DNA of 64,000 nt, from assembly GCA_902384555.1 (NCBI GenBank), contig CABMCD010000027.1, positions 25,067-89,066 of the forward strand, read 5' to 3'. The notes under the pieces were generated by a model that ran no database searches, had not been told where the DNA came from, and worked only from the letters and a program-made list of their open reading frames with translations. Made by a program: the position numbers and the translations under genes. Below are positions 2,225 to 50,894 of the stretch, in pieces (the stretch's first letter is position 1; every line of letters starts with the position of its first letter). This DNA is from an uncultured archaeon. Lineage in GTDB: Archaea; Micrarchaeota; Micrarchaeia; Anstonellales; Anstonellaceae.

Positions 2225-2294
2225 GGCTGAATTGGGAAAGAGGCGAATAAAAACAAGGCGGTCGGGAAGAAAATAAAACAGAAAAACGGACGGC

Positions 2295-3161: not shown

Positions 3162-3246
3162 GGCCCGCGGACTGGGCGTGTCTTGAGTTTCACATTGAAC
3201 CGAGGGATTTTTTAAGGGCACGCTCGTGCGCTTATGCGGTGCAGAC

Positions 3247-3717: not shown

Positions 3718-3762
3718 GGAAAGGCCAGAACGGCCCCGGACGGCCCGGACCCGATTGCTCTT

Positions 3763-5466
3763 TTATCTTCTGCGCCGGCGCTTGAGGTCGCGGGCCAGCT
3801 TTTCGAATTCGTCCTGCATGAGCCTAAGCGAGCGCGAAAGGCGGGATGCGGCCGATTGGCCGGACTGCATCAGGCTGGAACCGGCGCGCGGAACGGACTG
3901 GCCGATGCGCCGGGCGGTGCGGGCCGAGCGCTCCATTCCCTCCCCCGCGAGGCGCATGGTGCGCTGGGTTTCCCGCTCCACCATCCGCGCGCCGGCCGCT
4001 GGAACTTCGGCCAAGCGCTCGGCCGCCCATACCGTGTGCTGGGTGCCCGTCTGCGCGAGATGAAGGCTGGCCTCGCTGAAGTCCATGAGGTGGCGGCCCA
4101 TGCGCCGGCTGGGCTGCGCAGCCAGCACCTCCCACAAGAAGCGCCCGCCGCTCATGCCGCCCTCGAAGGTGTGCTCCGAGAAGCGGGGGAGGAAGTAGGC
4201 GGAGGCGATGTAGCGCGCCATGGCGCTGATGAAAAAGACCGCCAAAAAGGGCGTCGGGTCCAGCGCGCCGGCGTGCGGCCAGACGGCCAGCAGGGCGCCG
4301 CCCAGCAGGGTGCCCAGCAGCATCCCGCTGCCCTTCGAGAGGCCGTAGACGGCCGACTGCGAAGCGCGCGAGGAGGGGTCGGGCATCGAGATGGTGTAGG
4401 TGAGGCAGGCGAGGTCAAAGCCCGACCACGCGAGGCCGGAGAACACCTGCGCGAAGAAAAGCCATTCGAACGAGTGGCCCATCACCCAAAGCATGGCGAC
4501 CGCCGGCACCAGAAAGCCGGTGCCGAACAGCACGGCGCGGTTGCCGAAGCGGTCGATGATTTTTCCCCAATAGGTGTAGAAAAACACCTTGGCCAGCGTC
4601 TGCACCGCCACCAGCACCGACCAGGTGAAGTAGTCGAACTTGAGCACGCTGAGCATGTAGATGTCGAAGAAGGGCGCGGCGATGTAGGTGGCGGTGATGA
4701 GGGCGCTCACATAGAGGCTGAAGCGCCGCCCTTCGGCCAAGCCGGGCGAGGAGAGGTAGGTGCGCCAGTCGGAGGCATGCTGAGGGCCGGATGGGACGGC
4801 CTGCTCGGGGCGATGGTCGGCCATGCGCGAGAGAAACCAGCCCGACACGAGGCGGGCGGCGAGGGCGGTGAGAAAGAGGATGGCAAAGGCCTGCGTGCCG
4901 GGCAGGCCGGCGTGGTCCAGCATCCAGCCGGCGCCCAGCACCGCCAGCATCTGCAGCAGCACGTTGAGCCGCAGGCGGCTGGAGAAAAACGAGCCGCGCT
5001 CGCCGGGCGTCACCAGCTCGGCCATCCACGCGCTCCAGCCGGGATTGAGCATCTGGCCGAACACTTGATAGAGAATGTAGAGGCCCAAGACCGGAAGCAG
5101 GGCGGAGGAGGAGTCGGCCAGCGCGGGGCCGAAGAGGCCGCTGCCGGCGGCCCAAGCCAGAAGGGCAATGGGGATCCAGATGAGGGCTTGCAGCAGCACC
5201 CCAGAGGCATAGACCAGGCGGCGGTTGCGGATGCGCGGCTCGATTGGAAGAACCAGCATCTGCGCCAGCGCGCCGATGAACTGGGGCACGGTTTGGATGA
5301 TGCCCGAAAAACCCGAATCCGCGCCCAGTTTGATGGCGAAAGGATTGACGAAGGTCTCGCCCGCGCCCACCATCACCGACCAGGCGGCGCCGTCCGCCAG
5401 CGAGGCGGACTTGGAGCGCTGGCGCTCGGCCGGAGTATAGCCGTTCTCGTCTCGCGTGTCGCTCAT
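3763..5466 (-). CDS. MFS transporter with long cytoplasmic C-terminal tail
   Basis: 12 TM-like segments. Start at MSDTRDENGY (ATG 5466). C-terminal ~140 aa is Arg/Ser/Ala-rich and non-membrane. Confidence 0.65.
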   Translation of the reverse strand: MSDTRDENGYTPAERQRSKSASLADGAAWSVMVGAGETFVNPFAIKLGADSGFSGIIQTVPQFIGALAQMLVLPIEPRIRNRRLVYASGVLLQALIWIPIALLAWAAGSGLFGPALADSSSALLPVLGLYILYQVFGQMLNPGWSAWMAELVTPGERGSFFSSRLRLNVLLQMLAVLGAGWMLDHAGLPGTQAFAILFLTALAARLVSGWFLSRMADHRPEQAVPSGPQHASDWRTYLSSPGLAEGRRFSLYVSALITATYIAAPFFDIYMLSVLKFDYFTWSVLVAVQTLAKVFFYTYWGKIIDRFGNRAVLFGTGFLVPAVAMLWVMGHSFEWLFFAQVFSGLAWSGFDLACLTYTISMPDPSSRASQSAVYGLSKGSGMLLGTLLGGALLAVWPHAGALDPTPFLAVFFISAMARYIASAYFLPRFSEHTFEGGMSGGRFLWEVLAAQPSRRMGRHLMDFSEASLHLAQTGTQHTVWAAERLAEVPAAGARMVERETQRTMRLAGEGMERSARTARRIGQSVPRAGSSLMQSGQSAASRLSRSLRLMQDEFEKLARDLKRRRRR

Positions 5467-5602
5467 GATAGGGTCGCCGGATGGGAAAACGCGGGCTTGG
5501 AATTTAAAGCGCGCAGGCGCGGGCATCGGAAGGAGCTGAATCCTGCTTCGGGTGTGTGGTTGCATCTTTTTGTTCATTTTGGTATAGATGCATACAAATA
5601 AG

Positions 5603-5620
5603 CACGAATATTTAAATAGG
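5603..5620 (+). promoter_or_regulatory. archaeal BRE/TATA-like element upstream of trpE
   Basis: cgaatatttaaatagg, an AT island in a GC-rich genome, ~45 nt upstream of the trpE ATG at 5663. Confidence 0.45.
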
Positions 5621-5662
5621 TCCGACGGGGAGTTGAATCATCCAAACATTAGGTGCATTACC

Positions 5663-7027
5663 ATGATTCATGAAGAAAGACTGGCCATGTCCATCTCGCC
5701 GGTGGACCTGTTTTCGGCCGTGTGCGAGCGCTGCGACAAGGCCTTTTTGCTCGAATCCAGCGACGGCCCGCAGAAGCTGGCGCGCTTCTCCTTTGTGGGC
5801 TTCGAGCCGGCCAAGCACATCGTGCTCAAGGAGGGGAAGTTCAGCGTGAATGGGAAAGAGAGGGAAGCCGGGAAAAATCCGCTCGCAATGCTCAAGGCCG
5901 AGGTGGGTACCGATGACGACCCCCATGCCGGCCTCACGGGCGGGGCGGTGGGCTACTTTTCCTATGAATACACCCGCTATTTGGAAGCGCTCAAGACCGA
6001 TTTGGCGGACGAGACGGGCTTCCCGGATTTCGAGTTCGGCATTTTCGAGGACGTGGTGGTGTTCGACCACCACGAGGGCGCGGTGCGTTATTTGCACCGC
6101 GGCGAGAGCCGCCTCGAGCGGCTGAAAGAAATGGTGATGGGCGCGTCGTTCAGCCCCGAGCCGATGCAGATGTACAATTCCAAGTGCAACACCAGCCGCG
6201 AGAAATTCTGCCAAAATGTGGAGCAGGCCAAAAAGATGATAGAGGCGGGCGAGATTTTCCAGGTGGTGCTCTCCAAGCGCTATGACGTGAAATATTCGGG
6301 CAGCTTGGTGCCGTTCTACAAAAAGCTCAAGGCCATCAATCCCTCCCCCTATCTCTACTTCCTCAAGTTCGGGGAGCGGCAGGTAATCGGCTCCAGCCCC
6401 GAAAATCTGGTGCGCGTGGAAGGACGGGAGATTACCAGCTTCGCCACCCTCGCCGGCACGCGCGAGCGCGGCAAGGACGTGCAGGAGGACGCGAAGTTGG
6501 AGAAGGAGCTGTTGATGGACGAGAAGGAGCGGGCCGAGCATCTCATGCTGGTCGACCTCACGCGCAACGACGTGGGAAAGGTGGCGGCTGCGGGCAGCGT
6601 GCAGGTGCCCAAACTGATGGAAGTGCACAAATTCTCGCACGTGCAGCACATCGCCTCGCAGGTGAGCGCCACCCTCGCGGAGGGCAAGGATGCCTATGAC
6701 GCGCTGGCCTCCATTCTGCCGGCCGGCACGGTGTCGGGCGCGCCGAAAGTGCGGGCCATGCAAATCATTGACGAACTGGAGGGCGCGCGGCGCGGGCCCT
6801 ATGCGGGCGCGGTGGGCTATTTCTCGGCCAACGGCAATGCGGATTTCGCCATTTCGATTCGCACGCTGTTTGCAAACGGCAAGAAGGCCTTCATCCAGAC
6901 GGGGGCCGGTATTGTGTATGACAGCGTGCCGGACAAGGAATTTGACGAGACGGAGAACAAGGCCAAGGCGCTGCTGCATGCCATGGGCGAGGACCGCTAT
7001 GAGGCGGCCATTGCGGGGAAGAGGTGA
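5663..7027 (+). CDS. trpE: anthranilate synthase component I
   Basis: Full-length TrpE-like sequence with a chorismate-binding C-terminal domain. Start placed at 5663, downstream of the TATA element. Confidence 0.9.
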   Translation: MIHEERLAMSISPVDLFSAVCERCDKAFLLESSDGPQKLARFSFVGFEPAKHIVLKEGKFSVNGKEREAGKNPLAMLKAEVGTDDDPHAGLTGGAVGYFSYEYTRYLEALKTDLADETGFPDFEFGIFEDVVVFDHHEGAVRYLHRGESRLERLKEMVMGASFSPEPMQMYNSKCNTSREKFCQNVEQAKKMIEAGEIFQVVLSKRYDVKYSGSLVPFYKKLKAINPSPYLYFLKFGERQVIGSSPENLVRVEGREITSFATLAGTRERGKDVQEDAKLEKELLMDEKERAEHLMLVDLTRNDVGKVAAAGSVQVPKLMEVHKFSHVQHIASQVSATLAEGKDAYDALASILPAGTVSGAPKVRAMQIIDELEGARRGPYAGAVGYFSANGNADFAISIRTLFANGKKAFIQTGAGIVYDSVPDKEFDETENKAKALLHAMGEDRYEAAIAGKR

Positions 7028-7031
7028 GCCC

Positions 7032-7622
7032 ATGACCAAATTGCTGATAATCGACAATTTCGATTCGTTTACCTACAACCTCTACCAGCGCCTGCGCGAG
7101 CTGGAGTGCGAAGTGGAGGTAAAAAGAAATAACGCCATCACGCTCCAGCAAATCAGGGCCGGGAATTATGACGGGCTCGTGCTCTCGCCCGGCCCCGGCA
7201 CGCCGGAAAAAAAGGAGGATTTCGGCGTGTGCGCGGACGTGATTCGGGAGCTGGGCCCGTCTTCGCCCATTTTGGGCGTGTGCTTGGGCCATCAGGGCAT
7301 CATCCATTCGTTTGGGGGCAAAATCGTGCGCGCGCCAAGGCCGAGGCATGGCAAAACTTCGCAGATTGAGCATGAGGGCAGGGGCCTGTTCGAGGGCCTG
7401 CCCAACCCGCTCACCGTCATGCGCTATCACTCGCTGGTGGGAGAAGAGGCCAGCCTGCCGTCTTGCCTGCGCATCACGGCCCGAAGCCTGGACGACAAGC
7501 AGGTAATGGGCGTGCAGCACGAGAAATATCCCATGTTCGGAGTGCAGTTCCACCCCGAATCCATCATGGCGCAGGATGGGCTTAGGCTGCTGGGCAATTT
7601 CCGGGCCCAATGCAAAAGGTGA
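7032..7622 (+). CDS. trpG: anthranilate synthase component II (glutamine amidotransferase)
   Basis: Class I GATase with GVCLGHQ (catalytic Cys) and an HPE motif. ATG at 7032, 5 nt after the trpE stop. Confidence 0.9.
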   Translation: MTKLLIIDNFDSFTYNLYQRLRELECEVEVKRNNAITLQQIRAGNYDGLVLSPGPGTPEKKEDFGVCADVIRELGPSSPILGVCLGHQGIIHSFGGKIVRAPRPRHGKTSQIEHEGRGLFEGLPNPLTVMRYHSLVGEEASLPSCLRITARSLDDKQVMGVQHEKYPMFGVQFHPESIMAQDGLRLLGNFRAQCKR

Positions 7623-7626
7623 GCGC

Positions 7627-8628
7627 ATGGAATTTCAAGCCATTTTGAACAAGGCCGTCCTGAGCCAAGAGCTGGACGAGGACGAGGCGCGCTTGGCCAT
7701 GCAGCTGATGATGGAAGGCAAAATAGAGAACGAGAAGATGGCGGCCTTTCTCACCGCCCTGAAAATGAGGGGCGAGAGCGCAGGCGAGATTGCCTCCTTT
7801 GCGCGCGTGATGCGGCAGAATGCGCGCACCATCCGCGCAGAGGGCGACTATTTGGTTGATACGTGCGGCACGGGCGGGGATGGAAGGAGCACGTTCAATG
7901 TCTCCACGTGTGCCGCCTTTGTGGCGGCCGGGGCAGGCTGCCAAGTGGCCAAGCACGGCAATCGGGCCAGCTCCTCCAAAAGCGGCAGCGCGGATGCGCT
8001 GGAAGCGCTGGGCGTGAAAGTGGGCCTGGGGCCGCAAGAGTGCGAGAAGCAGCTCCAAGCGATTGGAATCACCTTTCTGTTTGCGCCGGCTTTTCATCCG
8101 GCCATGAAAAATGTGGGGCCCGTGAGAAAGGCCTTGGGATTCAAGACCGTGTTCAACATCTTGGGGCCGCTCACCAACCCGGCCGGCGTGAGGCGGCAGG
8201 TCATTGGCGTCTATGACAAGAAGATGGCGGGCAAGATGGCCGAAGTGCTGCAAAAGCTTGGAGTGGAGCGCGCGCTGGTGGTTTCCTCCGATACGGACGA
8301 GATTTCGATTTCGGACGAGACGCAGGTGCATGAGGTGGAGGGCGGGAAAATCAAAACCTATTCCATTTCGCCTGAAAAATTCGGAATAAAGAAAGCAAGC
8401 TTGGATGAGCTTAAGGCCGATGAGGCCGCGGCAAGTTCCCGCATTATTCTCGAGGTTCTTTCCGGCAAGAGCGGTCCGGCGCGAGATATTGTTTTGCTCA
8501 ATGCGGGGGCGGCCATTTATGCGGCCGGCAAGGCGGACAGTTTGGAAAAAGGCATGGAAATGGCCACGCAATCGATTGATTCGGGTGCGGCCATGAAAAA
8601 GCTTGAGCAAATGAGAAAGTTCGCATAG
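7627..8628 (+). CDS. trpD: anthranilate phosphoribosyltransferase
   Basis: DTCGTGGDG motif and overall TrpD architecture. Confidence 0.9.
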
Positions 8629-8635
8629 GAAGGTT

Positions 8636-10612
8636 TTGCATATGGCCGACATTTTGGACAAATTCATTTCACAGGCGCTGGAAAACGTCCAGAGCGGATA
8701 TTACGAGAGCGTGAAGGAGAAAGCACAGGTGAAGAAAGTCTCGCTGGCCTCGCGCCTTCGCTCCAATCCGTTCTCCCTTATTTCCGAAATCAAGCACGCC
8801 TCCCCGGCCGGGGAATATTCGTTTGAGGGCGTGGATGACCTGAAGATGGCCCGCGCCTTTCAGGAGTGCGGAGCGGACGCCATTTCGGTGGTGGTGGAGC
8901 CCAAGATATTCAAGGGAGATTTGAAGACCGTGGCGGTGGCCAAACAGGTGGGCCTGCCGGTGCTGTTCAAGGATTTTGTGCTGGATGAAAGACAGGTGGA
9001 GGCGGCCAGCCGGGCAGGCGCGGATTGCATGCTCTTGGTTATGCGCGTCATGGACCGCCAGAAATTGGATGCGCAGAAGTTCGTGGAAATGGCGCATGCG
9101 CGGGGCTTGGAAGTGCTGCTCGAATGCTATGATGCGGACGAGATGAAAAGGGCGATTGAAACCGATGCCGATGTGCTGGGCATCAACAACCGGGATTTGC
9201 AAACCCTCAAAGTGGATTTGAAGCGCACGCAGGAGATTGTGGAAAAGTTTGGAGCCAAATTGGACCGGCCCCTCATATCGGAGAGCGGGGTGAAGAGCCG
9301 GGCCGATGCCGAATTTTTGCAGAAATTGGGCGCCAAGGGCATTCTGGTGGGCACGGCATTGTGGACCGCCAAAGACGTGAGGGAAAAAGTGAGGGAGCTT
9401 AAATCCATTTCCTCCAGCCCTGCCCTGCAAAAGCATTTCGGCAGCTTTGGTGGGCAGTATGTGCCCGAAATTCTGGTGCCCGTGCTCGAAGAGCTGGAGC
9501 AGGAATTCGCCAAGGCCATGGCCGACCCCAAATTCCGCTCCGAACTTGAGTATTATCTCACGCACTATGCCGGAAGGCCCACGCCGCTGTATTACGCCAA
9601 GCGCCTGAGCGAGAAGACGGGCTTGAAAATCTATCTCAAGCGCGAGGATTTGCTGCACACCGGGGCGCACAAAATCAACAATTGTTTGGGGCAGGCGCTG
9701 CTGGCGAAAAGAATGGGCAAGACGCGCCTGATTGCCGAAACCGGGGCCGGACAGCACGGCGTGGCGAGCGCCACCGCGGCTGCGCTCTTGGGCCTTGAGT
9801 GCGAAGTGTATATGGGCCGCGAGGATGCCGAGCGCCAAGCCCTCAATGTCTACCGCATGAAACTGCTGGGCGCCAAAGTGGTTGTGGTGGAGGCCGGCTC
9901 GCGCACGCTCAAGGATGCGGTGAACGAGGCCATCCGCGACTATGCGGCCAATTTCAAGAACACGCATTACATGCTGGGCTCGGCCTTGGGGCCGCACCCC
10001 TTCCCCTCTATGGTGGCCGAATTCCAGTCCGTAATCGGCAAAGAGGCCAGAGAGCAGATTTTGAAGGCCGAAGGCCGTTTGCCGGATTATTTGGTGGCCT
10101 GTGTGGGCGGCGGGAGCAATGCCATCGGCCTCTTTGGGGCGTTTTTGCAGGACAAGGAAGTGAAGATGATTGGCGTGGAAGCAGGAGGCTTGGGCATTTC
10201 GAGCGGAAAGCACGCGGCCCGCTTCAGCCAAGACGGCAAGATAGGAATTTTGCACGGCACCAAGACTTATGTGCTCGAAGATAAGTATGGGCAAATTCAG
10301 GACACGCACTCCATTTCGGCCGGGTTGGACTATCCGGCCGTGGGGCCGGCCCATGCCCAGCTCGCGAAGAGCGGACGGGCCAAATACGTGTCCTTGCAGG
10401 ATGACGAGGCGCTGGAAGGCTTCCGGCAGCTGGCGCAAATGGAGGGCATCATTCCGGCGCTCGAATCCGCGCATGCGGTGGGATATTTGAAGAAATTGGC
10501 CAAGGAAATCTCCCCGAATTCGGTCGTGATTGTGAATTTGTCGGGCCGCGGCGACAAGGACGTGGAGCAAATCGCGAGGCGGGAAAAGAAAGAAGAAACA
10601 GGCCAATCTTGA
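8636..10612 (+). CDS. trpCB: fused indole-3-glycerol-phosphate synthase / tryptophan synthase beta chain
   Basis: N-terminal ~260 aa is IGPS-like ([15 protein letters not shown]). C-terminal ~395 aa is TrpB-like ([12 protein letters not shown]...HTGAHKINN...GGGSNA). Confidence 0.88.
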
Positions 10613-10621
10613 TTCGAGGCG

Positions 10622-11410
10622 ATGACCATGATGTTTATTCCATACATTTCCTGCGGCGACCCGGATGTGGAATTCAGCCGAAAGCTGGTGCAGGCCCTCG
10701 CTCCCCACTCCGACCTCATCGAGCTGGGCATTCCCTTCTCCGACCCGCTTGCGGACGGCCCCACCATCCAGGCCGCCTCCTCGCGCGCGCTGGCCGGCGG
10801 CATGAATACCGACAAGGCGTTGGAGATGGTGAAAAAATTGAGGGCAGATGGCGTGAAAACGCCGTTTGTGTTCATGACCTATTACAACGTGATTTATGCG
10901 TATGGAACGGCGCGCTTTATGCAGGCGAGCCGGGAGGCCGGCGTGCAGGGCGTGCTGGTGCCGGACGTGCCCATGGGCGAGGATGAGGAGCTGGAGAAAG
11001 AGGTGGAGAAAAACGGCCTCTTCATAGTCCAGCTCATTGCTACCAACACGCCGGATGAGCGGGCGCGCAAAATATTGCAAAAAGAGGCCGCGGGCTCGTT
11101 CACCTATCTGGTTTCGGTGGCCGGCACCACGGGAGAAAGAAAGAAGGTGGCCGATGAGAGTTTGGAATTTGTTAAGAGAATTCGAAAACTCGCAGCCAAC
11201 AATTCTTCCAACCGCTTGTGCGTGGGCTTCGGCGTTTCGGATGCCGAGGCCGGCAGGCAATTCGTGCAGGCCGGCGCGGACGGCGTCATTGTGGGCAGCA
11301 AGCTCATTTCAATGTACGTGAAAAATATCAAAGACAGAAAGAAAGTGGAGGGCGAAGAGGCCGTTCTGGCCGAAATCGCCCAATTCGCGAAAAGCTTCAA
11401 GCAAGAGTAG
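10622..11410 (+). CDS. trpA: tryptophan synthase alpha chain
   Basis: FIPYISCGDP...ELGIPFSDPLADGPTIQ motifs typical of TrpA. Confidence 0.9.
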   Translation: MTMMFIPYISCGDPDVEFSRKLVQALAPHSDLIELGIPFSDPLADGPTIQAASSRALAGGMNTDKALEMVKKLRADGVKTPFVFMTYYNVIYAYGTARFMQASREAGVQGVLVPDVPMGEDEELEKEVEKNGLFIVQLIATNTPDERARKILQKEAAGSFTYLVSVAGTTGERKKVADESLEFVKRIRKLAANNSSNRLCVGFGVSDAEAGRQFVQAGADGVIVGSKLISMYVKNIKDRKKVEGEEAVLAEIAQFAKSFKQE

Positions 11411-11413
11411 AGG

Positions 11414-12244
11414 GTGCAACCTATGGCTTCAACCATGAAAGACCTCAAGCTGGTGGCCGCTTCGGGCAAGCGCACCGTGGTCAGGGTGGATAAGGTGAAA
11501 ATCGGCGAAGGCCTTGCCCTGATTGCCGGCCCGTGCAGCGTGGAGAGCGAGGAGCAGACGGTCGAGACCGCCAAGGCGGTGAAGGCGGCCGGAGCCGACA
11601 TGCTGAGAGGAGGGGCATTCAAGCCCCGCACGTCGCCTTACGCCTTCCAGGGCTTGGGGCTCAAGGGGCTGAAGATTTTGGAAAAGGCCAAAGAGGAGAC
11701 CGGCCTGCCCGTGGTCACCGAAATCACGGACGCCAAGAATTTGCAGTGGGTGTGCGAGCATGCCGACATGCTGCAAATCGGGGCGCGCAACATGCAGAAT
11801 TTCGCCCTTTTGCAGGAAGTGGGCAAGGCCGACAAGCCGGTGCTGCTGAAAAGGGGCATGTACTCCACCATCGAGGAGTGGCTGCAGGCGGCCGAGTATA
11901 TTCTCAAGGAGGGCAACCCGGACGTGGTGCTCTGCGAGCGGGGCATCCGCACCTTTGAGAAATACACGCGCAACACGCTTGATTTGAGCGCGGTGCCGGC
12001 CGTGCAGGAGCTGACGCATCTCCCAGTCATTGTGGACCCCACGCACAGCACCGGCCGGCCCAGCCTTATTCCGGCCATGAGCCTGGCGGCGGTGGCGGGC
12101 GGGGCGGACGGGCTGATTATCGAGGTCCATCCCAACCCGCCCAGCGCCCTGTCCGATGCCGAGCAGCAGCTCACTTTCAGCCAGTTCGCGGCGGTGGCCT
12201 CAAAAGCGCGCCAGCTGCACAAAGCGATGCAGGGATTGCAATGA
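11414..12244 (+). CDS. 3-deoxy-7-phosphoheptulonate (DAHP) synthase, short type I-beta
   Basis: [12 protein letters not shown]...[11 protein letters not shown] motif shared by DAHPS I-beta and KDO8PS. Position at the head of the aro cluster favours DAHPS. Confidence 0.75.
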
Positions 12245-13272
12245 AGGAAATGACGCTCCGAGCGCAAAGCGGGACCACCCGCATACTACTGGATGCGAAG
12301 CTGGAGGACTTGTCCAAGCACGTGCCCCCCAAAACACAGGCCGTGATGGTGGTGGATGCCGAAGTGCTTAGGCTTCACGGCCCGCGCCTGCCCAAACTGC
12401 CAGTCATTTCCATCGAGGCCACGGAGGACAACAAGAGCCTCGACACCATCTGCAAAATCTACGAATTCTTCATGCAGCAGGAGCTGGACCGCACGGGATT
12501 TGTAATCGGCATTGGCGGCGGCATCGTGTGCGACATGGCCGGCTTCGCGGCTTCCACCTACATGCGCGGCGTGCCGTTTGCCTACGCGCCCACCACGCTT
12601 CTGGCGCAGGCCGATGCGTCACTGGGCGGCAAGACCGGCGTCAATTTGCAGGGCTACAAAAATCAGGTCGGGACATTCTGCCAGCCAAGCTTTGTGCTCA
12701 TGGACCTCTCCGTTCTCAAGACCCTGCCCGGGCCGCAAGTGCGGGACGGATTTGCGGAAATCATCAAGCACGCCGCCATTGCGGATGCGCAACTGTTCGA
12801 AATGCTGGAGAAGAACGCAAAAGATGCGCTTGTGCTGGATGAGAAGGCGCTGCGCGCCATTCTGCTCCGCTCGCTGGCCGTCAAGATTTCCGTTGTGGAA
12901 AAAGACGAGAAAGAGGCCGGCGTGCGCCGGCTGCTCAACTTCGGGCATACGCTGGGCCATGCGATTGAGAAAACGCAGCAAAAAAGCCATGGGCAGGCCG
13001 TGGCGATTGGGATGGTGCTGGCGGCCAAGATGTCGGTGGAAAGAAAGATGATGAAAGAAGGCGAGTGCAAACGGCTGATTTCGCTTTTGCGCGCGTATGG
13101 CCTTCCGACCGAATTGGATGGACGGCCGGATGCCCTGCTGCAAGCCGTAACGCACGACAAGAAAAGGGCGGGCGCAAGCCTCCATATGGTGCTGCTGGAA
13201 AAAATCGGGCAAGCTAAAGTGGTGGCAGTGCAAATGGACAAACTAGCGGGAGATTTGCATGATTTGCGTTAG
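12241..13272 (+). CDS. aroB: 3-dehydroquinate synthase
   Basis: [20 protein letters not shown]...[12 protein letters not shown], the DHQS metal/NAD-binding motifs. Confidence 0.85.
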
Positions 13273-15271
13273 CCTCATCGGCCCCACCGTGCGCGACTGT
13301 TTGGCCCAGCTGAAAGAAGTTTCGCTGGCCGAAATTCGGATGGATTTGATTTCGGATTTGGATGAGGGGGGCGTGAAGAAAATATTTTCAAGCCCGGTCA
13401 AATTGATTGCAACCTGCAGGCCGAAGGACAAGGAAAACAAGCAACAAAACGCCCGGCGCGAGCAACTGCTTCTTCTGGCCATTTCCGGCGGGGCGGCCTT
13501 TGTGGATATTGAGCTGGAGTCGCCGGCCGAAATGAGAAGACGAGTGGCGGAAGCGGCCAAAAAGGCCGGATGCAAGGTCATTGTTTCGCATCATGATTTC
13601 GAAAAAACCCCCATGCGGCAGGAGCTGGCCGGGATTAAGGCCCGCTGCCTTGAAGAGGGGGCCGATGTGGCGAAATTGGCCTGTATGGCCAGAAGCGAAG
13701 AGGACGTGCAGCGAATGCTGGATTTGTGCGACCCGCGCACCGTGGCGATTGCCATGGGTCCGATGGGAGTGGAAGCCCGGGCCAAAATTGTTTCATTGGG
13801 CAGCCCCTTCACCTTTGCCGCCTTTGATGAAAAGAGCGCGGCCGCGCCGGGGCAGGTGGGCAGAGAGAGGATGGAAAAAATGATGCAAGAGACCGGGAAG
13901 GCCGCGAGGGACGGGAAAACGACGGAGAACGGGGAGCACCCGGCTTCACGCACCCCCATTTTGCTGGCCGTCAGCGGCAATCCGGTGCATCACAGCCAAA
14001 GCCCGGCCCTGCACAATGCGGGTCTGGCCAGCTTGGGAATAGAAGGCGCCTACTTCCGCCTGCTGGGCGGCGATGCGGCCGAGGTGCTGCGCACCGCGCG
14101 GGCGATGGGCTTGCGCGGCCTGAGCGTGACCTCGCCCTTTAAGGAGGAGATGGCGCACTTGGTGCATGAATTGAACGGCGCGGCGCGTGAGCTGGGGGCA
14201 GCCAATACCGTGGTGCTGGAAAAAGGAAAGGCCGTTGGATACAATACGGATGGGTTGGGCGTGAGCGGCCCGCTGGCGGCGGCCGGCGTGTCCCTTTCGG
14301 GCGCACGGGCAGTGGTGGTGGGCTCGGGCGGGGCGGCCAAGGCGGCCGTGCTGGCCTTGCAGAAAGCGGGCGCGAGTGTGGTGATGGCCAACCGCACGGT
14401 TGCGAAGATAGAGGCATTTGCCAAGAAATTTGGATGTGAGACCTGCACGCTCGAGCCGGCCGAGCTGGGGCCGAAACTGGCGCAAGCGAGCATACTGGTG
14501 TCTTGCACCAGCACCCATGAGCGCTTCATCGAGCCCAGCCTGCTGCATTCGGAGTTGGCGGTGCTGGATGCGCATTACACCAAACCCACTGCACTGGTGG
14601 CCGATGCGAAGGCGGCCGGATGCAAAATCGTGTCAGCCCAAGACTGGCTGCTCTACCAGGGGCTGGAGGCCTTCCGGCTTTTCACCAAGAGAGAAGCCCC
14701 GGCCGAGGCCATGCGGCAAGGCGTGCTATCGGCCCAGCAGGCCGGACCCAAGCAGGCCAACAAGATTGCCCTTATCGGAATGATGGGCTGCGGCAAGAGC
14801 GCGGTCGGCAAGAGGCTGACCGACGGAGCCGGGCTGCGGCTGGTGGAAATGGATGCCGAGATTGAGAGAAAGGCCGGCAGGCGCGTGGCTGAAATATTTG
14901 AAAAAGAGGGAGAAGCGAAATTCAGGCAAATGGAATCCGCCCTGCTAAGCGAGCTGGCGGGGCGCAAAGACAAGTTCGTGGTGTCCTGCGGGGGCGGCGT
15001 GGTGCTCGACGAGCGCAATGTCGAGCTGTTGCAGACGCATTTCTACACCGTGTGGCTCTGGGCGGACGAGGAGGACATTTTGGCCCGCGTGGGCTCGAAA
15101 ACCAGCCGGCCCCTGCTCAACCGGCCCGACAAGCGCGAGGCCGTGCGCCGCCTGCTGGAGGAGCGCAAGGTGCGCTATGCGTCAGCCTGTGATTTGGCCA
15201 TCAGCACCCAAAACCGGACGCCCAAGAAAATCGCCGAGATGATTGCTCATGAAATTGGTCTTGCCAACTGA
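13259..15271 (+). CDS. aroDEK: trifunctional 3-dehydroquinate dehydratase (type I) / shikimate dehydrogenase / shikimate kinase
   Basis: N-terminal type I DHQase (SHHDF, Lys in KLA). Middle AroE (AVSGNPVHHSQSPALHN, GSGGAAKAA). C-terminal bacterial P-loop AroK (IGMMGCGKSAVGKRL). Confidence 0.85.
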   Translation: MICVSLIGPTVRDCLAQLKEVSLAEIRMDLISDLDEGGVKKIFSSPVKLIATCRPKDKENKQQNARREQLLLLAISGGAAFVDIELESPAEMRRRVAEAAKKAGCKVIVSHHDFEKTPMRQELAGIKARCLEEGADVAKLACMARSEEDVQRMLDLCDPRTVAIAMGPMGVEARAKIVSLGSPFTFAAFDEKSAAAPGQVGRERMEKMMQETGKAARDGKTTENGEHPASRTPILLAVSGNPVHHSQSPALHNAGLASLGIEGAYFRLLGGDAAEVLRTARAMGLRGLSVTSPFKEEMAHLVHELNGAARELGAANTVVLEKGKAVGYNTDGLGVSGPLAAAGVSLSGARAVVVGSGGAAKAAVLALQKAGASVVMANRTVAKIEAFAKKFGCETCTLEPAELGPKLAQASILVSCTSTHERFIEPSLLHSELAVLDAHYTKPTALVADAKAAGCKIVSAQDWLLYQGLEAFRLFTKREAPAEAMRQGVLSAQQAGPKQANKIALIGMMGCGKSAVGKRLTDGAGLRLVEMDAEIERKAGRRVAEIFEKEGEAKFRQMESALLSELAGRKDKFVVSCGGGVVLDERNVELLQTHFYTVWLWADEEDILARVGSKTSRPLLNRPDKREAVRRLLEERKVRYASACDLAISTQNRTPKKIAEMIAHEIGLAN

Positions 15272-16499
15272 AATAGACGGCCAAGTGCCGGCCCCCCCGT
15301 CCAAAAGCCAGATGCAGCGCGCGGTGGCCATCGGCAGCCTAAGCGAGGCGCCCCTCACCATCACCAATCCCGATTTCAGCGACGACTCGCAGTCGGCCAT
15401 GAGCGTGGTGGAAGGGCTGGGAGCCAAAGTCGAGCGCCAATTTGGCGGGCCGGAAGCAAACGTCAGGATTACCCCCGGTGCGGGCCTGGCGCAGCACACC
15501 CTCAACTGCGGCCAGTCGGGCCTGTGCATGCGCCTGTTTCCCTCCATTGCGGCCCTGCAGGACAAGCCCTTTACATTTACGGCAACCGGCGGGCTGAACA
15601 CCCGCCCAGTGGGCATGCTCTCCGACGCGCTCAGCCAGCTGGGAGCCGAGAGCCACTGCAAAAATGGACTTCCGCCCCTGAGCGTGCAGGGCCCGCTGCG
15701 CGGCGGGAATGCGGTGATGGATGCCTCGGTCTCGTCCCAGCCCCTGAGCGGGCTGCTGCTGGCACTGCCGAAAGCGCAGGCCGATTCGCATGTGGAGGCG
15801 CGGGGCCTGGAGAGCAAGCCCTATGTGCGCATGACCATGCAGCTGGCCGCCAAATTCGGAGTGGAAATCGGGCATTCGGAGAATTTGGATGCGTTCGACA
15901 TTCCGGCCCGGCAGCAGTACCGGGGCGGAAGCTATGAGGTGGAGGGCGACTGGTCGGGCGCCTCGTTCCTGCTGGTGGCCGGAGCGGTCGCGGGCCGGAT
16001 GGCGGTGGAGGGGCTGGATGCCGATTCGCTGCAGGCCGACCGGGCCATTCTCGATGCGCTGCGCCTTGCGGGCGCAAACGTGAAGGATGGCCCGAATTCG
16101 ACCCGAGTGGAGCGTGGCGAGCTCCAGGCGTTTGAATTCGACCTCACCCAATGCCCGGACTTGGCGCCCCCGCTGGTGGTGCTGGCCGCCTACTGTCCGG
16201 GCACCAGCATTTTGCGCGGCACCCGCCGCCTGCGCTTCAAGGAGAGCGACCGGGCGGCCGTGCTCAAGGAGGAGTTCGCCCATTTGGGCGTGCGGGTGGA
16301 GACGGAGGAGAATGAGATGAGAATATTCGGAGGCGCGGTGCGCGGCGGAGAGGTGGATTCCAACGGGGACCACCGCATCGCCATGAGCGCGGCCGTGGCC
16401 GCGCTGGGCTCGCAGGAGGGCGTGAGGATAAAGAACGCGGCCTGCGTCTCGAAATCATTCCCGTCATTTTTCGAGCGTTTGGAGGAAGCGAGGGCGTGA
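15243..16499 (+). CDS. aroA: 3-phosphoshikimate 1-carboxyvinyltransferase (EPSP synthase)
   Basis: PPSKSQMQRA...LGAKV motifs and full-length EPSPS. Confidence 0.9.
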   Translation: MLMKLVLPTEIDGQVPAPPSKSQMQRAVAIGSLSEAPLTITNPDFSDDSQSAMSVVEGLGAKVERQFGGPEANVRITPGAGLAQHTLNCGQSGLCMRLFPSIAALQDKPFTFTATGGLNTRPVGMLSDALSQLGAESHCKNGLPPLSVQGPLRGGNAVMDASVSSQPLSGLLLALPKAQADSHVEARGLESKPYVRMTMQLAAKFGVEIGHSENLDAFDIPARQQYRGGSYEVEGDWSGASFLLVAGAVAGRMAVEGLDADSLQADRAILDALRLAGANVKDGPNSTRVERGELQAFEFDLTQCPDLAPPLVVLAAYCPGTSILRGTRRLRFKESDRAAVLKEEFAHLGVRVETEENEMRIFGGAVRGGEVDSNGDHRIAMSAAVAALGSQEGVRIKNAACVSKSFPSFFERLEEARA

Positions 16500-16535
16500 A
16501 GGAAGAAGCCGGCGCAGGCCGGCGAACGGGAGGTT

Positions 16536-17588
16536 ATGGGCATGAACACGTTTGGAAGTTTGTTCCGCGTATCGGTTTTCGGCGAATCCCACGGCCCGGC
16601 AGTGGGCGTGCTGCTGGACGGCGTGCCGGCGGGCGTGAGCTTGAGCGAGGCGGACTTTTCCGCTGATATCGGGCGGCGCAGGCCCGGGGCGAGGGGCACC
16701 ACACCGCGCGTGGAGGCGGACGAGCCCGAGCTGATGAGCGGCGTGTTTAATGGCAAGACCACCGGCGCGCCCCTGCTGATTATGTTCCACAACGGCAACG
16801 TGGACTCCAAGCCTTACGAGAAATTGAAAAACACGCCCCGGCCCGGACATGCGGACCTGACAGCCAGCCAGAAATTCGGCGGGTTCAATGATTACCGCGG
16901 AAGCGGGCATTTTTCCGGCCGGCTGACGCTGTGCCTGGTGGCGGCCGGCGTGGTGGCCAAGAAAATGATGGCTGGAGCGGGGGCGGAAGAGGCCGGACGG
17001 CGCGGGGCCGGAGCCGGAGAGGGCATCCGGATTGAGGCCCGCCTCGTTTCGGCCGGCGGCTCGGCCGACGTCCAGTCTGCGGTCGAATCCGCCATGAAAG
17101 ACGGCGACTCGGTAGGGGGCGTGGTGGAATGCAAAGTGTCCGGCCTGCCAACCGGGCTGGGCGAGCCCTTCTTTGACTCGGCCGAGTCGCTCATCAGCCA
17201 CATCGCGTTCGCCATTCCGGCCGTGAAAGGGGTGGAATTCGGCACGGGGTTCGCGGCCGCAAAAATGAAGGGAAGCGAAATGAACGACAGCCTCGCGGAT
17301 GCCTCGGGCCGCACGCGCACCAATAATTCGGGCGGCATCAACGGCGGCATCACCAACGGAAACGAGCTGGTGGTGCGCATCGCCGTCAAGCCCACCTCCA
17401 GCATTGCCCGGGAGCAGGAGCTGCTGGACGTCAAGAGCGGCGAGAAAAAGAAGGCCAGTATAGCGGGCCGGCATGACGCCTGCATCGCCTTGCGCGTGCC
17501 GGTGGTGCTGGAGGCGGCCGTGGCGATTGCGCTGGCCGACCTGATGGCGCGCGAGCAGAAAGTGAAGCGCGTGCAGGCCCGGGCGTGA
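16536..17588 (+). CDS. aroC: chorismate synthase
   Basis: FGESHGPAVG...RPGHAD...GRHDACIALRVPVVLEAA, the conserved chorismate synthase signatures. Confidence 0.9.
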   Translation: MGMNTFGSLFRVSVFGESHGPAVGVLLDGVPAGVSLSEADFSADIGRRRPGARGTTPRVEADEPELMSGVFNGKTTGAPLLIMFHNGNVDSKPYEKLKNTPRPGHADLTASQKFGGFNDYRGSGHFSGRLTLCLVAAGVVAKKMMAGAGAEEAGRRGAGAGEGIRIEARLVSAGGSADVQSAVESAMKDGDSVGGVVECKVSGLPTGLGEPFFDSAESLISHIAFAIPAVKGVEFGTGFAAAKMKGSEMNDSLADASGRTRTNNSGGINGGITNGNELVVRIAVKPTSSIAREQELLDVKSGEKKKASIAGRHDACIALRVPVVLEAAVAIALADLMAREQKVKRVQARA

Positions 17589-17630: not shown

Positions 17631-18821
17631 ATGCAATTCAAGACCGGGCAGACGGCCGCACAGGAGGGCTTTTTGGAAAAGCCGCTTCTGGTGGAAAACG
17701 CCCCCATGCGGCAGGGCGGCGAGCTGCTGGAGAGCGTGCGCAGCGGCCAATACCTGCTGCAGCTGCAGACCCGCATCCGCGAATACGCGCCCGGCTATGC
17801 GCAGGACCCCCGCGCGAAGAGGCTGCTGGATTATCTTTCCAAAAATGCGGACGCGCTCTCGCAGGAGTTTGCGGCCCGCTGCACGGACGGCTCCATTAAA
17901 TACGAAATCCGCAGCCCGCAGGATTTGGATTTCGCCTTCGGCGTGTTCGTGGGGGCCAAATTCAGCTATGCGGATTTGGAAAAGAAGGGGCCGCTGCAAT
18001 ACCCGAAAATAACCGAGCTGCCGTCCCAAAGCGACCTGGCAGGGGGGCCGGCCGGAAGCTATGACCCGAAGAAAGGGCCTCAAGCGCGCAACCACTACAA
18101 CCCCGAAGCCCACGAAATCGCGATTGAGCGCTATGACTGGGGCGCGGAGCGCGACTGGAAAATCGCGCCGCTTGTTTTCGGCATCGGACTGGGGGCGCAC
18201 GAGCATGCCCACGCCCGCCCGAAGATGACCGGCGCGGCGGGCCGCATGGTGGGCGAATACGGCGCCTATGTGGCGCAAAGCGGATTCGCGCCGCCGCTGC
18301 TCAAGGAGGACGCGGCCGCGATTGAAAAGCGGTTCGACTCCCCGGCCGGCATCCGCGACCTCGCCAAATACGGCGGAAAATTCGCCGGGCTGGACGAGGA
18401 GACGCTCAAGGGCCTGCGGGGCGAATACCTCGCGTTCGCCCTCGGCCCGTTTCTGAAAAAATCCGGCCTTGACGCGTCCGCCCTGAAAGTCGACTCCTAT
18501 TCCGAAGTGACCATCGGCGGAATCTACGACATGCTCACGAAATACAGAAGCGGCCAGATTGCGGATGTCGAGATGATGAAAATAGAGGCGCTGGTGCGGA
18601 TGGGGCTGGACGTGGACAACGAGCCGGACCGCTTCGAGCAGGCCCGCGCGGTGCTGGACAAGATGGAGACCGCCAAATGGACGACGTTTGGGGAATTTCT
18701 GGACGCGTTCTGGAAAGCGGCCAAGGCCGAGTTCAAAAGCTCGCCGAAATTCGAGAAACTGGGCAAGGATTTCACCCTGCTCGATGCCCGGATTTGCGCC
18801 GCAGACGCTGGAGTGGCGTGA
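17631..18821 (+). CDS. hypothetical protein
   Basis: 396 aa ORF with non-biased composition and a GGGAGGG-like RBS upstream of its ATG. No recognisable motif. Confidence 0.5.
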   Translation: MQFKTGQTAAQEGFLEKPLLVENAPMRQGGELLESVRSGQYLLQLQTRIREYAPGYAQDPRAKRLLDYLSKNADALSQEFAARCTDGSIKYEIRSPQDLDFAFGVFVGAKFSYADLEKKGPLQYPKITELPSQSDLAGGPAGSYDPKKGPQARNHYNPEAHEIAIERYDWGAERDWKIAPLVFGIGLGAHEHAHARPKMTGAAGRMVGEYGAYVAQSGFAPPLLKEDAAAIEKRFDSPAGIRDLAKYGGKFAGLDEETLKGLRGEYLAFALGPFLKKSGLDASALKVDSYSEVTIGGIYDMLTKYRSGQIADVEMMKIEALVRMGLDVDNEPDRFEQARAVLDKMETAKWTTFGEFLDAFWKAAKAEFKSSPKFEKLGKDFTLLDARICAADAGVA

Positions 18822-21040: not shown

Positions 21041-21124
21041 CTGAGAGTTTTACGAAAATGTGAAGGCAGAGGCGGTTTATAACACGCACGGGCGGAGGCA
21101 GAAAGCTTAATATGGATTCCAAAA

Positions 21125-36504: not shown

Positions 36505-36636
36505 GCGGGGCCAAGAAGCGCCGCTTTGGCGGACAAAAGCGGCCGCGTTGCGGGGCTTGAGGGCCCGAATTTATTCTTTTTTGCGACGGAGGGCCGAGGG
36601 CAGGCTTTTAATCCCTTTTGGCGAGTAGGTGGCCGT

Positions 36637-50870: not shown

Positions 50871-50894
50871 GGCGTAGCCTCTAGGCATTTGCAA

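What the first reader, a model, noticed from the sequence alone, without database searches (positions are those of the whole stretch)
5663..17588. 12-kb aromatic amino acid super-operon with two unusual gene fusions and bacterial-type enzymes in an archaeon
Fifteen catalytic activities are encoded co-directionally with short gaps or overlaps: trpE, trpG, trpD, a TrpC-TrpB fusion, trpA, DAHP synthase, aroB, an AroD(type I)-AroE-AroK triple fusion, aroA, aroC. The TrpC-TrpB fusion is not the common TrpC-TrpF arrangement. The AroD-AroE-AroK fusion resembles a fragment of the fungal AROM polypeptide and uses bacterial P-loop shikimate kinase rather than the archaeal GHMP-type kinase. It also uses DAHP synthase rather than the archaeal ADH-synthase route. 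No trpF (PRA isomerase) is present in the cluster.
Basis: partly seen in the sequence, partly recalled or inferred. Interest (0 to 1): 0.55.

Follow-up and report, generated by a model that had tools for sequence, protein, structure and literature searches.

The report
Micrarchaeal tryptophan-shikimate operon with fused genes
This is a real ten-gene operon for making chorismate and tryptophan in a small DPANN (Micrarchaeota) archaeon; its two gene fusions and its missing trpF gene are typical of that lineage rather than unique, so it is a tidy but largely ordinary find.

Summary
Observation confirmed. Window 5663-17588 (+) holds ten tightly packed or overlapping genes: trpE, trpG, trpD, trpC·trpB (fused), trpA, DAHP synthase, aroB, aroD·aroE·aroK (fused), aroA and aroC. 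That is 13 catalytic domains, not 15. Both fusions are uninterrupted ORFs with their catalytic motifs intact.

- **Host:** it is a Micrarchaeota (DPANN) archaeon.
- **Lineage pattern:** at least six other Micrarchaeota MAGs carry all or part of the same trp–aro cluster. All steps are seen: trpC|trpB separate or fused, and aroD|aroE·K or aroD·E·K. The fusions are therefore lineage-typical end-to-end joins of neighbouring genes.
- **TrpC·TrpB:** this fusion already has an NCBIfam model.
- **AroE·AroK:** this fusion is published for Methanomicrobiales.
- **AroD·E·K:** the triple fusion is rare but not unique. There are at least 14-17 clusters at 50% identity among 1.84 billion representatives, from both bacteria and archaea.
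- **AROM comparison:** the domain order is D-E-K, not the K-D-E of AROM.
- **DAHP synthase:** its closest solved relatives are, from memory, archaeal enzymes.
- **trpF:** it is absent from every related operon fetched and from this window. Its genome-wide absence in a related Micrarchaeon is already published, with promiscuous HisA proposed as the substitute.

Interest is low to moderate. The only open point is who isomerises PRA.

The parts
5467..5662 (.). Divergent intergenic region between an MFS transporter gene (- strand) and trpE. It contains a TATA-box-like TTTAAATA at 5611-5618, about 45 nt upstream of the trpE ATG.
   Evidence: Sequence read; MFS Pfam hit. The promoter role is inferred from resemblance to a consensus only.
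5663..7027 (+). trpE, anthranilate synthase component I
   Evidence: Chorismate_bind 5e-90; TIGR01820 TrpE-arch 487 bits; start choice.
7032..7622 (+). trpG, glutamine amidotransferase component II. It lies 4 nt after the trpE stop and is preceded by GAGGTGA.
7627..8628 (+). trpD, anthranilate phosphoribosyltransferase
   Evidence: TIGR01245, 425 bits, above cutoff.
8642..10612 (+). trpC·trpB fusion (656 aa). The IGPS domain spans about nt 8705-9400, a linker of about 10 residues ([11 protein letters not shown]) follows, and TrpB1 spans about nt 9434-10612.
   Evidence: Motifs seen: EIKHASP, KDF, GINNRDL and ESGV for IGPS; HTGAHK (PLP lysine) and GGGSN for TrpB. The 656-aa product is the deposited protein P0119.
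10622..11410 (+). trpA, tryptophan synthase alpha
   Evidence: TIGR00262, 248 bits.
11423..12244 (+). Type I-beta DAHP synthase without a regulatory domain. It starts 3-12 nt after the trpA stop, so no separate promoter gap exists between the trp and aro genes.
   Evidence: best PDB matches 1vs1 at 5e-101 and 1zco at 3e-92.
12241..13272 (+). aroB, 3-dehydroquinate synthase. Its start overlaps the DAHP synthase stop in an ATGA.
   Evidence: TIGR01357, 340 bits.
13259..15271 (+). aroD·aroE·aroK triple fusion (670 aa).
- Type I dehydroquinase: aa 1-208, nt 13259-13882
- Low-complexity linker: aa ~209-233
- Shikimate dehydrogenase: aa 234-492, nt 13958-14734
- Short linker
- P-loop shikimate kinase: aa ~501-666, nt 14759-15256
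   Evidence: His112 and the Schiff-base Lys139 align with the plant DHQ-SDH. Columns that are invariant or at least 90% conserved: S246, S248, K295, N316, N329, D331 and Q467 (dehydrogenase); G510, G512, K513, D532, R556, G578-G580, R617 and R636 (kinase). The protein equals NCBI VVB57388.1.
15249..16499 (+). aroA, EPSP synthase. It overlaps the end of the triple fusion by 23 nt.
16536..17588 (+). aroC, chorismate synthase
   Evidence: TIGR00033, 354 bits.

Best explanation
This is the aromatic amino-acid operon typical of the Micrarchaeota lineage (NCBI phylum Microcaldota, kingdom Nanobdellati; commonly grouped with DPANN).

**Transcription (inferred).** There is probably one transcription unit, starting at a TATA-like element upstream of trpE.

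**Pathway encoded.**
- The full canonical shikimate pathway: PEP + E4P -> DAHP -> DHQ -> DHS -> shikimate -> S3P -> EPSP -> chorismate.
- The tryptophan branch except PRA isomerase: chorismate -> anthranilate -> PRA ... CdRP -> IGP -> indole -> Trp.

**Origin of the fusions.** Both multi-domain genes arose by end-to-end joining of genes that were already neighbours, through loss of a stop codon at a 1-nt gap or a 4-nt overlap.
- trpC + trpB became trpC·B.
- aroD + the older aroE·K fusion became aroD·E·K.

**Consequence of the fusions (inferred, not shown).** The fused proteins keep all catalytic residues. They most likely serve fixed stoichiometry, co-expression and proximity of consecutive steps. 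The triple fusion covers shikimate steps 3-5. The other fusion tethers IGPS to the tryptophan synthase complex.

**The PRA isomerase step.** It is supplied in trans, most likely by a HisA enzyme with promiscuous or PriA-like activity. A canonical trpF elsewhere in the unsampled genome is less likely.

**Shown versus inferred.** Gene identities, intact fusions and lineage conservation are shown. Operon transcription, enzyme activity, benefit of proximity and the HisA substitution are inferred.
For: **Identity and intactness**
-.

**Host**
- Every named best hit to aCPSF1/FttA is Micrarchaeota or Micrarchaeia, up to 81% identity for named hits and 91% for unnamed ones.
- TrpB groups with DPANN TrpBs.

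**Conserved cluster and intermediate states**
- L088: trpEGD-trpC|trpB-trpA ... DAHPS-aroB-[D·E·K]-aroA-aroC-pheA-tyrA-aminotransferase. trpC and trpB are separated by 1 nt.
- L005: trpEGD[C·B]A-DAHPS-aroB-aroD|[E·K]-aroA. aroD and aroE·K overlap by 4 nt.
- L004: [C·B] and [E·K] fused, with aroD placed elsewhere.
- L001: DAHPS-aroB-[D·E·K]-aroA-aroC.
- L007 and L009: aroD|[E·K].

**Linkers**
- Linkers between the same domains vary from about 3 to 30 residues among orthologues.

**Phylogeny**
- A neighbour-joining tree puts the window's E·K part inside a Micrarchaeota clade, next to P0002. Both E·K and D·E·K forms occur in that clade.

**trpF**
- It is absent from all related operons fetched.
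- The supplement of PMC8561730 states that no PRAI signature exists anywhere in the related MAG LFW-121_3. It proposes HisA or PurF promiscuity.
- The same paper reports a histidine pathway in that group.
Against: - No transcript or enzyme data exist.
- Only 64 kb of the genome is visible, so a canonical trpF elsewhere cannot be excluded for this organism.
- The PRAI profile used was built from only two sequences.
- The trees are neighbour-joining without support values. Fused and unfused forms are intermixed, so the number and direction of fusion and fission events is unresolved.
- pheA, tyrA and the aminotransferase that follow aroC in relatives are missing here. An unrelated 396-aa ORF sits in their place.
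Confidence: 0.8

Rival explanations
1. The fusions are assembly or sequencing artefacts: an indel removed a stop codon in a metagenome-assembled contig, and the genes are really separate.
For: - The contig is a MAG contig.
- In some relatives the same genes are separate, with only a 1-nt gap or a 4-nt overlap, so a single indel could mimic a fusion.
Against: - Independent, divergent assemblies carry the same fusions: C·B in about 10 clusters at 53-68% identity, and D·E·K in L001 (51%) and L088 (42%).
- The fused forms have real linker peptides of variable length rather than a frameshifted overlap.
- Both ORFs are deposited as single proteins.
Confidence: 0.03
2. The cluster is a recent acquisition from Bacteria, so the fusions reflect a bacterial donor.
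For: - The P-loop SKI kinase is the type usual in Bacteria.
- In the neighbour-joining tree the Micrarchaeota E·K clade is sister to a group containing a Marinimicrobia E·K and D·E·K proteins, one of which sits in a clearly bacterial context (L089).
- The DPANN TrpB cluster sits next to Nitrospirota, NC10 and Aquificota sequences at 65-68% identity.
Against: - The cluster is shared by Micrarchaeota whose proteins are only 40-68% identical and whose local GC ranges from 41% to 62%. It is therefore old in the lineage.
- GC across the operon (0.57-0.65) matches the rest of the window.
- The best solved relatives of the DAHP synthase and of TrpB are, from memory, archaeal proteins.
- AroE·K also occurs in Methanomicrobiales.
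- An ancient transfer of parts, in either direction, remains possible.
Confidence: 0.15
3. A canonical trpF exists elsewhere in this genome. This is the situation in haloarchaea, which from memory split the genes into trpCBA and trpDFEG operons. On this reading nothing is unusual about the missing step.
For: - Only 64 kb of a contig of at least 101 kb is visible.
- trpC-trpB-trpA adjacency without trpF is a known archaeal gene order; trpCBA is named in haloarchaeal papers listed.
Against: - No PRAI signature was found in the whole related MAG LFW-121_3 (PMC8561730 supplement).
- None was found in the window or in about 150 kb of related Micrarchaeota loci.
Confidence: 0.25
4. The tryptophan branch is incomplete and non-functional for de novo synthesis. 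The organism would salvage an intermediate or rely on a host.
For: - DPANN archaea are often host-dependent auxotrophs (PMC8561730 introduction).
- One step lacks a gene.
Against: - All other trp genes are intact, have their catalytic motifs and are conserved in order across the lineage. That argues for selection on a working pathway.
- CdRP and PRA are unstable phosphorylated intermediates that are unlikely to be imported (general biochemical knowledge).
Confidence: 0.08

Closest known systems
Aromatic trp-aro clusters of other Micrarchaeota MAGs (GCA_016212525.1, GCA_018304295.1, GCA_902386385.1, GCA_023248665.1)
   Same: - Same gene order: trpE-G-D-C-B-A then DAHPS-aroB-(D)-E·K-aroA-aroC.
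- No trpF.
- Same fusion partners.
   Different: - The window combines both derived states (C·B and D·E·K).
- It has almost no gap between trpA and the DAHP synthase (3-12 nt, against about 220-320 nt or an inserted gene in relatives).
- It lacks the pheA-tyrA-aminotransferase tail.
- It lacks the conserved 166-aa divergent upstream gene.
Bifunctional DHQ dehydratase-shikimate dehydrogenase (plant DHQ-SDH, PDB 2gpt; AroD·E of Planctomycetota, Acidobacteriota and some methanogens)
   Same: - Type I dehydroquinase followed by shikimate dehydrogenase in one chain.
- It is the best solved match (8e-50, aa 21-486).
- Catalytic His and Lys are conserved.
   Different: - The window's protein carries an additional C-terminal shikimate kinase.
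- In Planctomycetota the kinase is usually a separate adjacent gene.
AroE·AroK fusion (Methanomicrobiales cluster 319 in PMC11237513; also Marinimicrobia and some Clostridia)
   Same: Shikimate dehydrogenase followed by a P-loop kinase in one chain, in an archaeon.
   Different: - The window's protein has an N-terminal dehydroquinase added.
- Identity to the Methanomicrobiales proteins is only about 35%, and they form a separate branch in the neighbour-joining tree.
Fungal pentafunctional AROM (Aro1)
   Same: It contains the same three activities, and D-E adjacency is shared. AROM chains match the D-E part.
   Different: - AROM order is AroB-AroA-AroK-AroD-AroE (established knowledge), whereas here it is D-E-K with aroB and aroA as separate genes.
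- The fusion is independent, not a fragment of AROM.
NCBIfam NF010375 (PRK13802), bifunctional IGPS / tryptophan synthase beta; Lawsonella-type proteins
   Same: Same domain order, IGPS then TrpB. The profile aligns over aa 23-645.
   Different: - The score is 601 bits against a curated cutoff of 1386.
- Lawsonella-type fusions are 50% identical and branch apart from the DPANN TrpBs.
- This points to an independent fusion.
PriA / promiscuous HisA substituting for TrpF (Actinobacteria; Plach et al. 2016, cited in PMC8561730)
   Same: A tryptophan pathway complete except for trpF.
   Different: - No hisA is visible in this window.
- The substitution has not been demonstrated in any archaeon and was not tested here.

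Membership tests
Canonical shikimate pathway (DAHP synthase route) | DAHP synthase and AroB-type dehydroquinate synthase are present, instead of ADH synthase and DHQ synthase II | tested here: met
   PF00793 at 2e-85 and TIGR01361 at 405 bits (above cutoff); TIGR01357 aroB at 340 bits (above cutoff).
Canonical shikimate pathway (DAHP synthase route) | All seven steps are encoded | tested here: met
   DAHPS, aroB, DHquinase_I, shikimate dehydrogenase, SKI, EPSP synthase and chorismate synthase are all present.
Complete trp operon (trpEGDCFBA) | All seven trp functions are present, including PRA isomerase (PF00697) | tested here: not met
   No PRAI domain in any scanned ORF of the window, nor in the six-frame profile search.
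NCBIfam NF010375 bifunctional IGPS/TrpB | IGPS domain N-terminal to TrpB in one polypeptide | tested here: met
   IGPS at aa 24-255 and TrpB at aa 267-648 of one ORF.
NCBIfam NF010375 bifunctional IGPS/TrpB | Score at or above the curated cutoff (1386 bits) | tested here: not met
   601 bits. The architecture is the same but this protein is not a member of that equivalog.
Fungal AROM pentafunctional polypeptide | Five domains in the order AroB-AroA-AroK-AroD-AroE in one chain | tested here: not met
   Three domains in the order D-E-K; aroB and aroA are separate genes.
AroD·AroE bifunctional enzymes (plant DHQ-SDH type) | Type I dehydroquinase with catalytic His and Schiff-base Lys, fused upstream of shikimate dehydrogenase | tested here: met
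   Alignment to 2gpt, with His112 and Lys139 conserved. The dehydrogenase columns S246, S248, K295, N316, N329, D331 and Q467 are at least 90% conserved.
AroE·AroK fusions | Shikimate dehydrogenase followed by a P-loop shikimate kinase with a Walker A motif | tested here: met
   SKI at 1e-42. G510, G512 and K513 are invariant; D532, R556, G578-G580, R617 and R636 are at least 90% conserved.
Archaeal GHMP-type shikimate kinase | GHMP kinase fold (PF00288 / PF08544) at the kinase step | tested here: not met
   The kinase domain matches SKI / AAA-type P-loop families only.
Micrarchaeota trp-aro cluster | Host markers of Micrarchaeota on the same contig, and conserved gene order with other Micrarchaeota | tested here: met
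   FttA best hits; synteny with L001, L004, L005 and L088.
PriA-type bifunctional HisA/TrpF | A HisA homologue with demonstrated PRA isomerase activity in a genome lacking trpF | not testable with these tools
   No hisA lies in the window. The rest of the genome is not available and the activity needs an assay.

The most novel reading that the evidence does not exclude
Micrarchaeota that carry this operon have no TrpF homologue anywhere in their genomes. PRA isomerisation would then be done by something not yet recognised: an archaeal PriA-like HisA (the milder version), or a new activity of an operon protein such as the TrpC domain or an unrelated enzyme (the stronger version).
Probability: 0.1. 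Interest if true: 0.65.

Novelty: new member of a known kind. Interest (0 to 1): 0.3.

Why it matters
**Biosynthetic autonomy.** The operon adds to the evidence that some DPANN archaea are biosynthetically self-sufficient rather than obligate auxotrophs.

**Stepwise gene fusion.** The Micrarchaeota loci offer a clean natural series of fusion states: trpC|trpB to trpC·B, and aroD|aroE·K to aroD·E·K. This could be used to study what fusion does to pathway enzymes.

**A compact enzyme.** The triple enzyme performs shikimate steps 3-5 in one polypeptide and could be of use in pathway engineering.

**The open question.** The one real unknown is the missing PRA isomerase, which is missing across the lineage. 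That gap has already been noted in print for a related genome.

Tried and rejected
- **Exact look-up of the window's contig.** The D·E·K protein is known (VVB57388.1) but its locus is not on record. The source study could therefore only be guessed. Prokka-style names and ENA accessions resemble the PRJEB21808 MAGs of PMC8561730; this is not verified.
- **Apparent triple fusions in the genome scan.** The genome-contig scan suggested many 'triple' matches in Planctomycetota. ORF inspection showed these are AroD·E plus a separate adjacent aroK. They were rejected as triple fusions, although one true planctomycete triple fusion exists (P0317).
- **A possible TrpF stand-in upstream of trpE.** The PRAI profile gave a marginal hit (E = 0.07) to a conserved 166-aa gene upstream of trpE in relatives. 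It was followed up. The protein is too short for a TIM barrel, looks like a small regulator and is absent from the window. It was rejected as a TrpF substitute.
- **The ORF after aroC.** The 396-aa ORF has no Pfam hit and no homologue in relatives' loci. There is no evidence that it belongs to the pathway.
- **Literature.** Searches for a described TrpC-TrpB fusion or AroD-E-K fusion found none; only the related fusions are described.
- **Contig chimerism.** This was rejected on uniform GC and on archaeal markers on both sides of the operon.

Full report
**1. What is in the sequence**

The + strand between 5588/5663 and 17588 carries ten consecutive ORFs. Pfam and NCBIfam identify them without ambiguity:
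- trpE
- trpG (the GATase domain starts at residue 119 of the longest ORF, so the real start is ATG 7032)
- trpD
- an ORF of 656-658 aa with an IGPS domain (aa 24-255) followed by a full TrpB (TIGR00263, aa 267-648)
- trpA
- a type I-beta DAHP synthase
- aroB
- a 670-aa ORF with type I dehydroquinase (aa 3-208), shikimate dehydrogenase (aa 234-492) and P-loop shikimate kinase (aa 509-665)
- aroA
- aroC

With the most plausible starts, the genes are separated by 3-36 nt or overlap by 4, 14 or 23 nt. The trpA stop and the DAHP synthase start are only 3-12 nt apart, so the trp and aro halves have no room for a separate promoter.

The 196-bp region upstream of trpE is shared with a divergent MFS transporter gene. 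It contains TTTAAATA at 5611-5618. This is a TATA-box-like element by resemblance only.

The count is 13 catalytic domains in 10 genes rather than 15 activities.

**2. Are the fused proteins intact?**

Yes. Residue roles below come from established knowledge of these enzyme families.
- The TrpC part has the IGPS motifs EIKHASP, KDF, GINNRDL and ESGV.
- The TrpB part has HTGAHK, which contains the PLP lysine, and GGGSN.
- The dehydroquinase part aligns with the Arabidopsis DHQ-SDH (2gpt), with the catalytic His (H112) and the Schiff-base Lys (K139) in place.
- In an alignment of fused relatives, the known dehydrogenase positions S246, S248, K295, N316, N329, D331 and Q467 are at least 90% conserved.
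- In the same alignment, kinase positions G510, G512 and K513 (Walker A) are invariant. D532, R556, G578-G580, R617 and R636 are at least 90% conserved.

**3. Who is the host?**

The window encodes aCPSF1/FttA (44821-46713) and a tRNA with a long intron, so the host is archaeal. Every named best hit to FttA is Candidatus Micrarchaeota or Micrarchaeia, at up to 81% identity for named hits and 91% for unnamed ones.

NCBI now calls this phylum Microcaldota, in the kingdom Nanobdellati; it is commonly grouped with DPANN. The closest TrpB sequences are also Micrarchaeota and other DPANN. The D·E·K protein is already in NCBI as VVB57388.1, annotated only as 'Shikimate dehydrogenase (NADP(+)) [uncultured archaeon]', on a 100,976-bp contig.

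**4. The cluster and its fusions are lineage-typical**

Contexts of homologues show the same operon in other Micrarchaeota MAGs, in every intermediate state:

| Locus | Assembly | Arrangement |
|---|---|---|
| L088 | GCA_016212525.1 | trpE-G-D-trpC\|trpB-trpA, one inserted gene, then DAHPS-aroB-[D·E·K]-aroA-aroC-pheA-tyrA-aminotransferase; trpC and trpB separated by 1 nt |
| L005 | GCA_018304295.1 | trpEGD[C·B]A-DAHPS-aroB-aroD\|[E·K]-aroA; aroD and aroE·K overlap by 4 nt |
| L004 | GCA_902386385.1 | [C·B] and [E·K] fused, aroD on the other strand |
| L001 | GCA_023248665.1 | DAHPS-aroB-[D·E·K]-aroA-aroC |
| L002 | 1.3-Mb Micrarchaeia contig | trpEGD[C·B]A alone |
| L007, L009 | Micrarchaeota | aroD\|[E·K] |

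Linkers between the same domains differ in length (about 3-30 residues) and in sequence among orthologues. This is what stop-codon loss between adjacent genes produces, and it rules out an assembly artefact.

A rough neighbour-joining tree of the E·K part puts the window next to P0002 inside a Micrarchaeota clade that contains both E·K and D·E·K forms.

**5. How rare are the fusions overall?**

*TrpC·TrpB*
- It occurs in about ten related clusters at 90% identity, those with a name being Micrarchaeota. It also occurs, independently, in Lawsonella-type actinobacterial proteins (50% identity, a separate branch).
- NCBIfam already has a model for this architecture, NF010375. The window's protein scores 601 bits against a cutoff of 1386, so it shares the architecture but is not a member of that equivalog.

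*AroE·AroK*
- This fusion is abundant. Most of the best 150 representatives are proteins of about 430-460 aa with this architecture.
- It is published for 42 of 55 Methanomicrobiales (PMC11237513). I confirmed it in Methanolinea, Methanoculleus and Methanospirillaceae loci.

*AroD·E·K*
- The word-index search found only two other examples.
- The exhaustive search of 1.84 billion representatives found 14 full-length single-stretch examples, plus 3 probable ones, among the best 150.
- These include another Micrarchaeon (P0239) and a planctomycete (P0317). They also include a bacterium with an aro operon (L089) and a further archaeal-looking genome (L090).
- P0093, found, sits in a bacterial context.
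- In most Planctomycetota the arrangement is AroD·E plus a separate adjacent aroK.
- I found no paper describing the D·E·K or the archaeal C·B architecture.

The triple fusion is therefore rare and recurrent, not unique.

**6. 'AROM-like' and 'bacterial-type'**

The best solved match of the triple fusion is the plant bifunctional DHQ-SDH (8e-50). AROM chains match only the D-E part. In AROM the kinase precedes the dehydroquinase (order B-A-K-D-E, established knowledge), whereas here it follows the dehydrogenase. The protein shares activities with AROM but is an independent fusion.

The DAHP synthase is closest to PDB 1vs1 and 1zco. From memory these are the Aeropyrum pernix and Pyrococcus furiosus enzymes. 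TrpB is closest to 1v8z, which from memory is P. furiosus TrpB1. Many archaea use the canonical DAHP route (established knowledge), so that feature is not anomalous.

The neighbour-joining tree places the Micrarchaeota E·K clade next to a group that includes a Marinimicrobia sequence and a D·E·K protein in a bacterial context. An old inter-domain transfer of the aroE·K unit is therefore possible, but it is neither resolved nor polarised.

**7. The missing trpF**

No PRAI or HisA-type domain is found in any scanned ORF of the window. I built a PRAI profile from two TrpC·TrpF·TrpB proteins. It finds nothing in the six-frame translation of the window or of seven Micrarchaeota loci.

None of the related operons has trpF. 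The C·B fusions (635-709 aa) have no room for a third barrel.

The supplement of Vázquez-Campos et al. 2021 (PMC8561730) states that the related Micrarchaeon LFW-121_3 has every Trp enzyme except TrpF. It reports no PRAI, MF_00135 or TIGR01919 signature anywhere in the predicted proteome. It proposes promiscuous HisA (or PurF) as the substitute. The main text reports aromatic amino-acid and histidine biosynthesis in that group.

The gap is therefore real, lineage-wide and already noted in print. Which enzyme fills it is untested.

**8. Mechanism, with what is shown and what is inferred**

*Shown*
- The gene identities.
- The intact fused ORFs.
- Conservation across the lineage, with intermediate states.

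*Inferred*
- A single transcript from a promoter upstream of trpE.
- A functional canonical pathway from PEP + E4P to chorismate and on to tryptophan.
- Fusions that fix 1:1 stoichiometry and bring consecutive active sites together. D-E-K covers steps 3-5. IGPS tethered to TrpB sits beside TrpA, which consumes its product.
- PRA isomerase supplied in trans, most likely by HisA.

**9. Verdict**

This is a correct and careful observation of a real operon. Its supposedly unusual features are either typical of Micrarchaeota, already catalogued, or recurrent elsewhere. I class it as a new member of a known kind. Interest is low to moderate, carried mainly by the unresolved PRA isomerase step and by the natural series of fusion states.

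Noticed in passing
window 25706-33142 (+) and 36526-40872 (+): Two giant ORFs of 2478 aa and 1448 aa. The first has only an HATPase_c domain at aa 1879-1987. The second has no Pfam hit.
   Followed up: no
window 40970-42460 (+): A 496-aa ORF with a weak C-terminal Por_Secre_tail match (a type IX secretion sorting domain; 29 bits against a cutoff of 27). This domain is normally found in Bacteroidota and is odd in an archaeon.
   Followed up: no
window 51778-51900 (+); 35476-35552 (+); 50894-50964 (-): A tRNA gene with an intron of about 50 nt was found by Rfam but missed by ARAGORN. A tRNA-Leu(CAA) was found by ARAGORN but not by Rfam at gathering score. tRNA-Cys was found by both.
   Followed up: no
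window 18846-23018 (-): Seryl-tRNA synthetase, a D-2-hydroxyacid dehydrogenase and a class-V aminotransferase lie together just downstream of the operon. This may be a serine-related group next to the serine-consuming TrpB.
   Followed up: no
window 17631-18821 (+): A 396-aa ORF lies 42 nt after aroC on the same strand. Its composition looks protein-like, but it has no Pfam hit and no homologue in relatives' loci. Relatives carry pheA-tyrA-aminotransferase at this position.
   Followed up: partly
L005:6057-6557(-), L004:4579-5079(-), L002:6320-6838(-), L009:~1798-2379(-), L088:1-177(-): A conserved protein of about 166 aa with no Pfam family on record is divergently transcribed from trpE in five Micrarchaeota loci (32-73% identical). 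It may be a regulator of the operon. It is absent from the window, which has an MFS transporter there instead.
   Followed up: partly
proteins P0241 (932 aa) and P0272 (770 aa); P0164 and P0170: Longer fusions exist in public data. P0241 and P0272 carry AroE·K at the N-terminus plus 340-500 extra residues of unidentified content. P0164 and P0170 are TrpC·TrpF·TrpB triple fusions.
   Followed up: partly
L090 (GCA_053535615.1) 3073-10070: An archaeal-looking 1.2-Mb contig carries a split transketolase, an FXD-domain DAHP synthase, aroB, a transaldolase and a 689-aa AroD·E·K. This cluster links the pentose-phosphate supply of E4P to the shikimate pathway.
   Followed up: no
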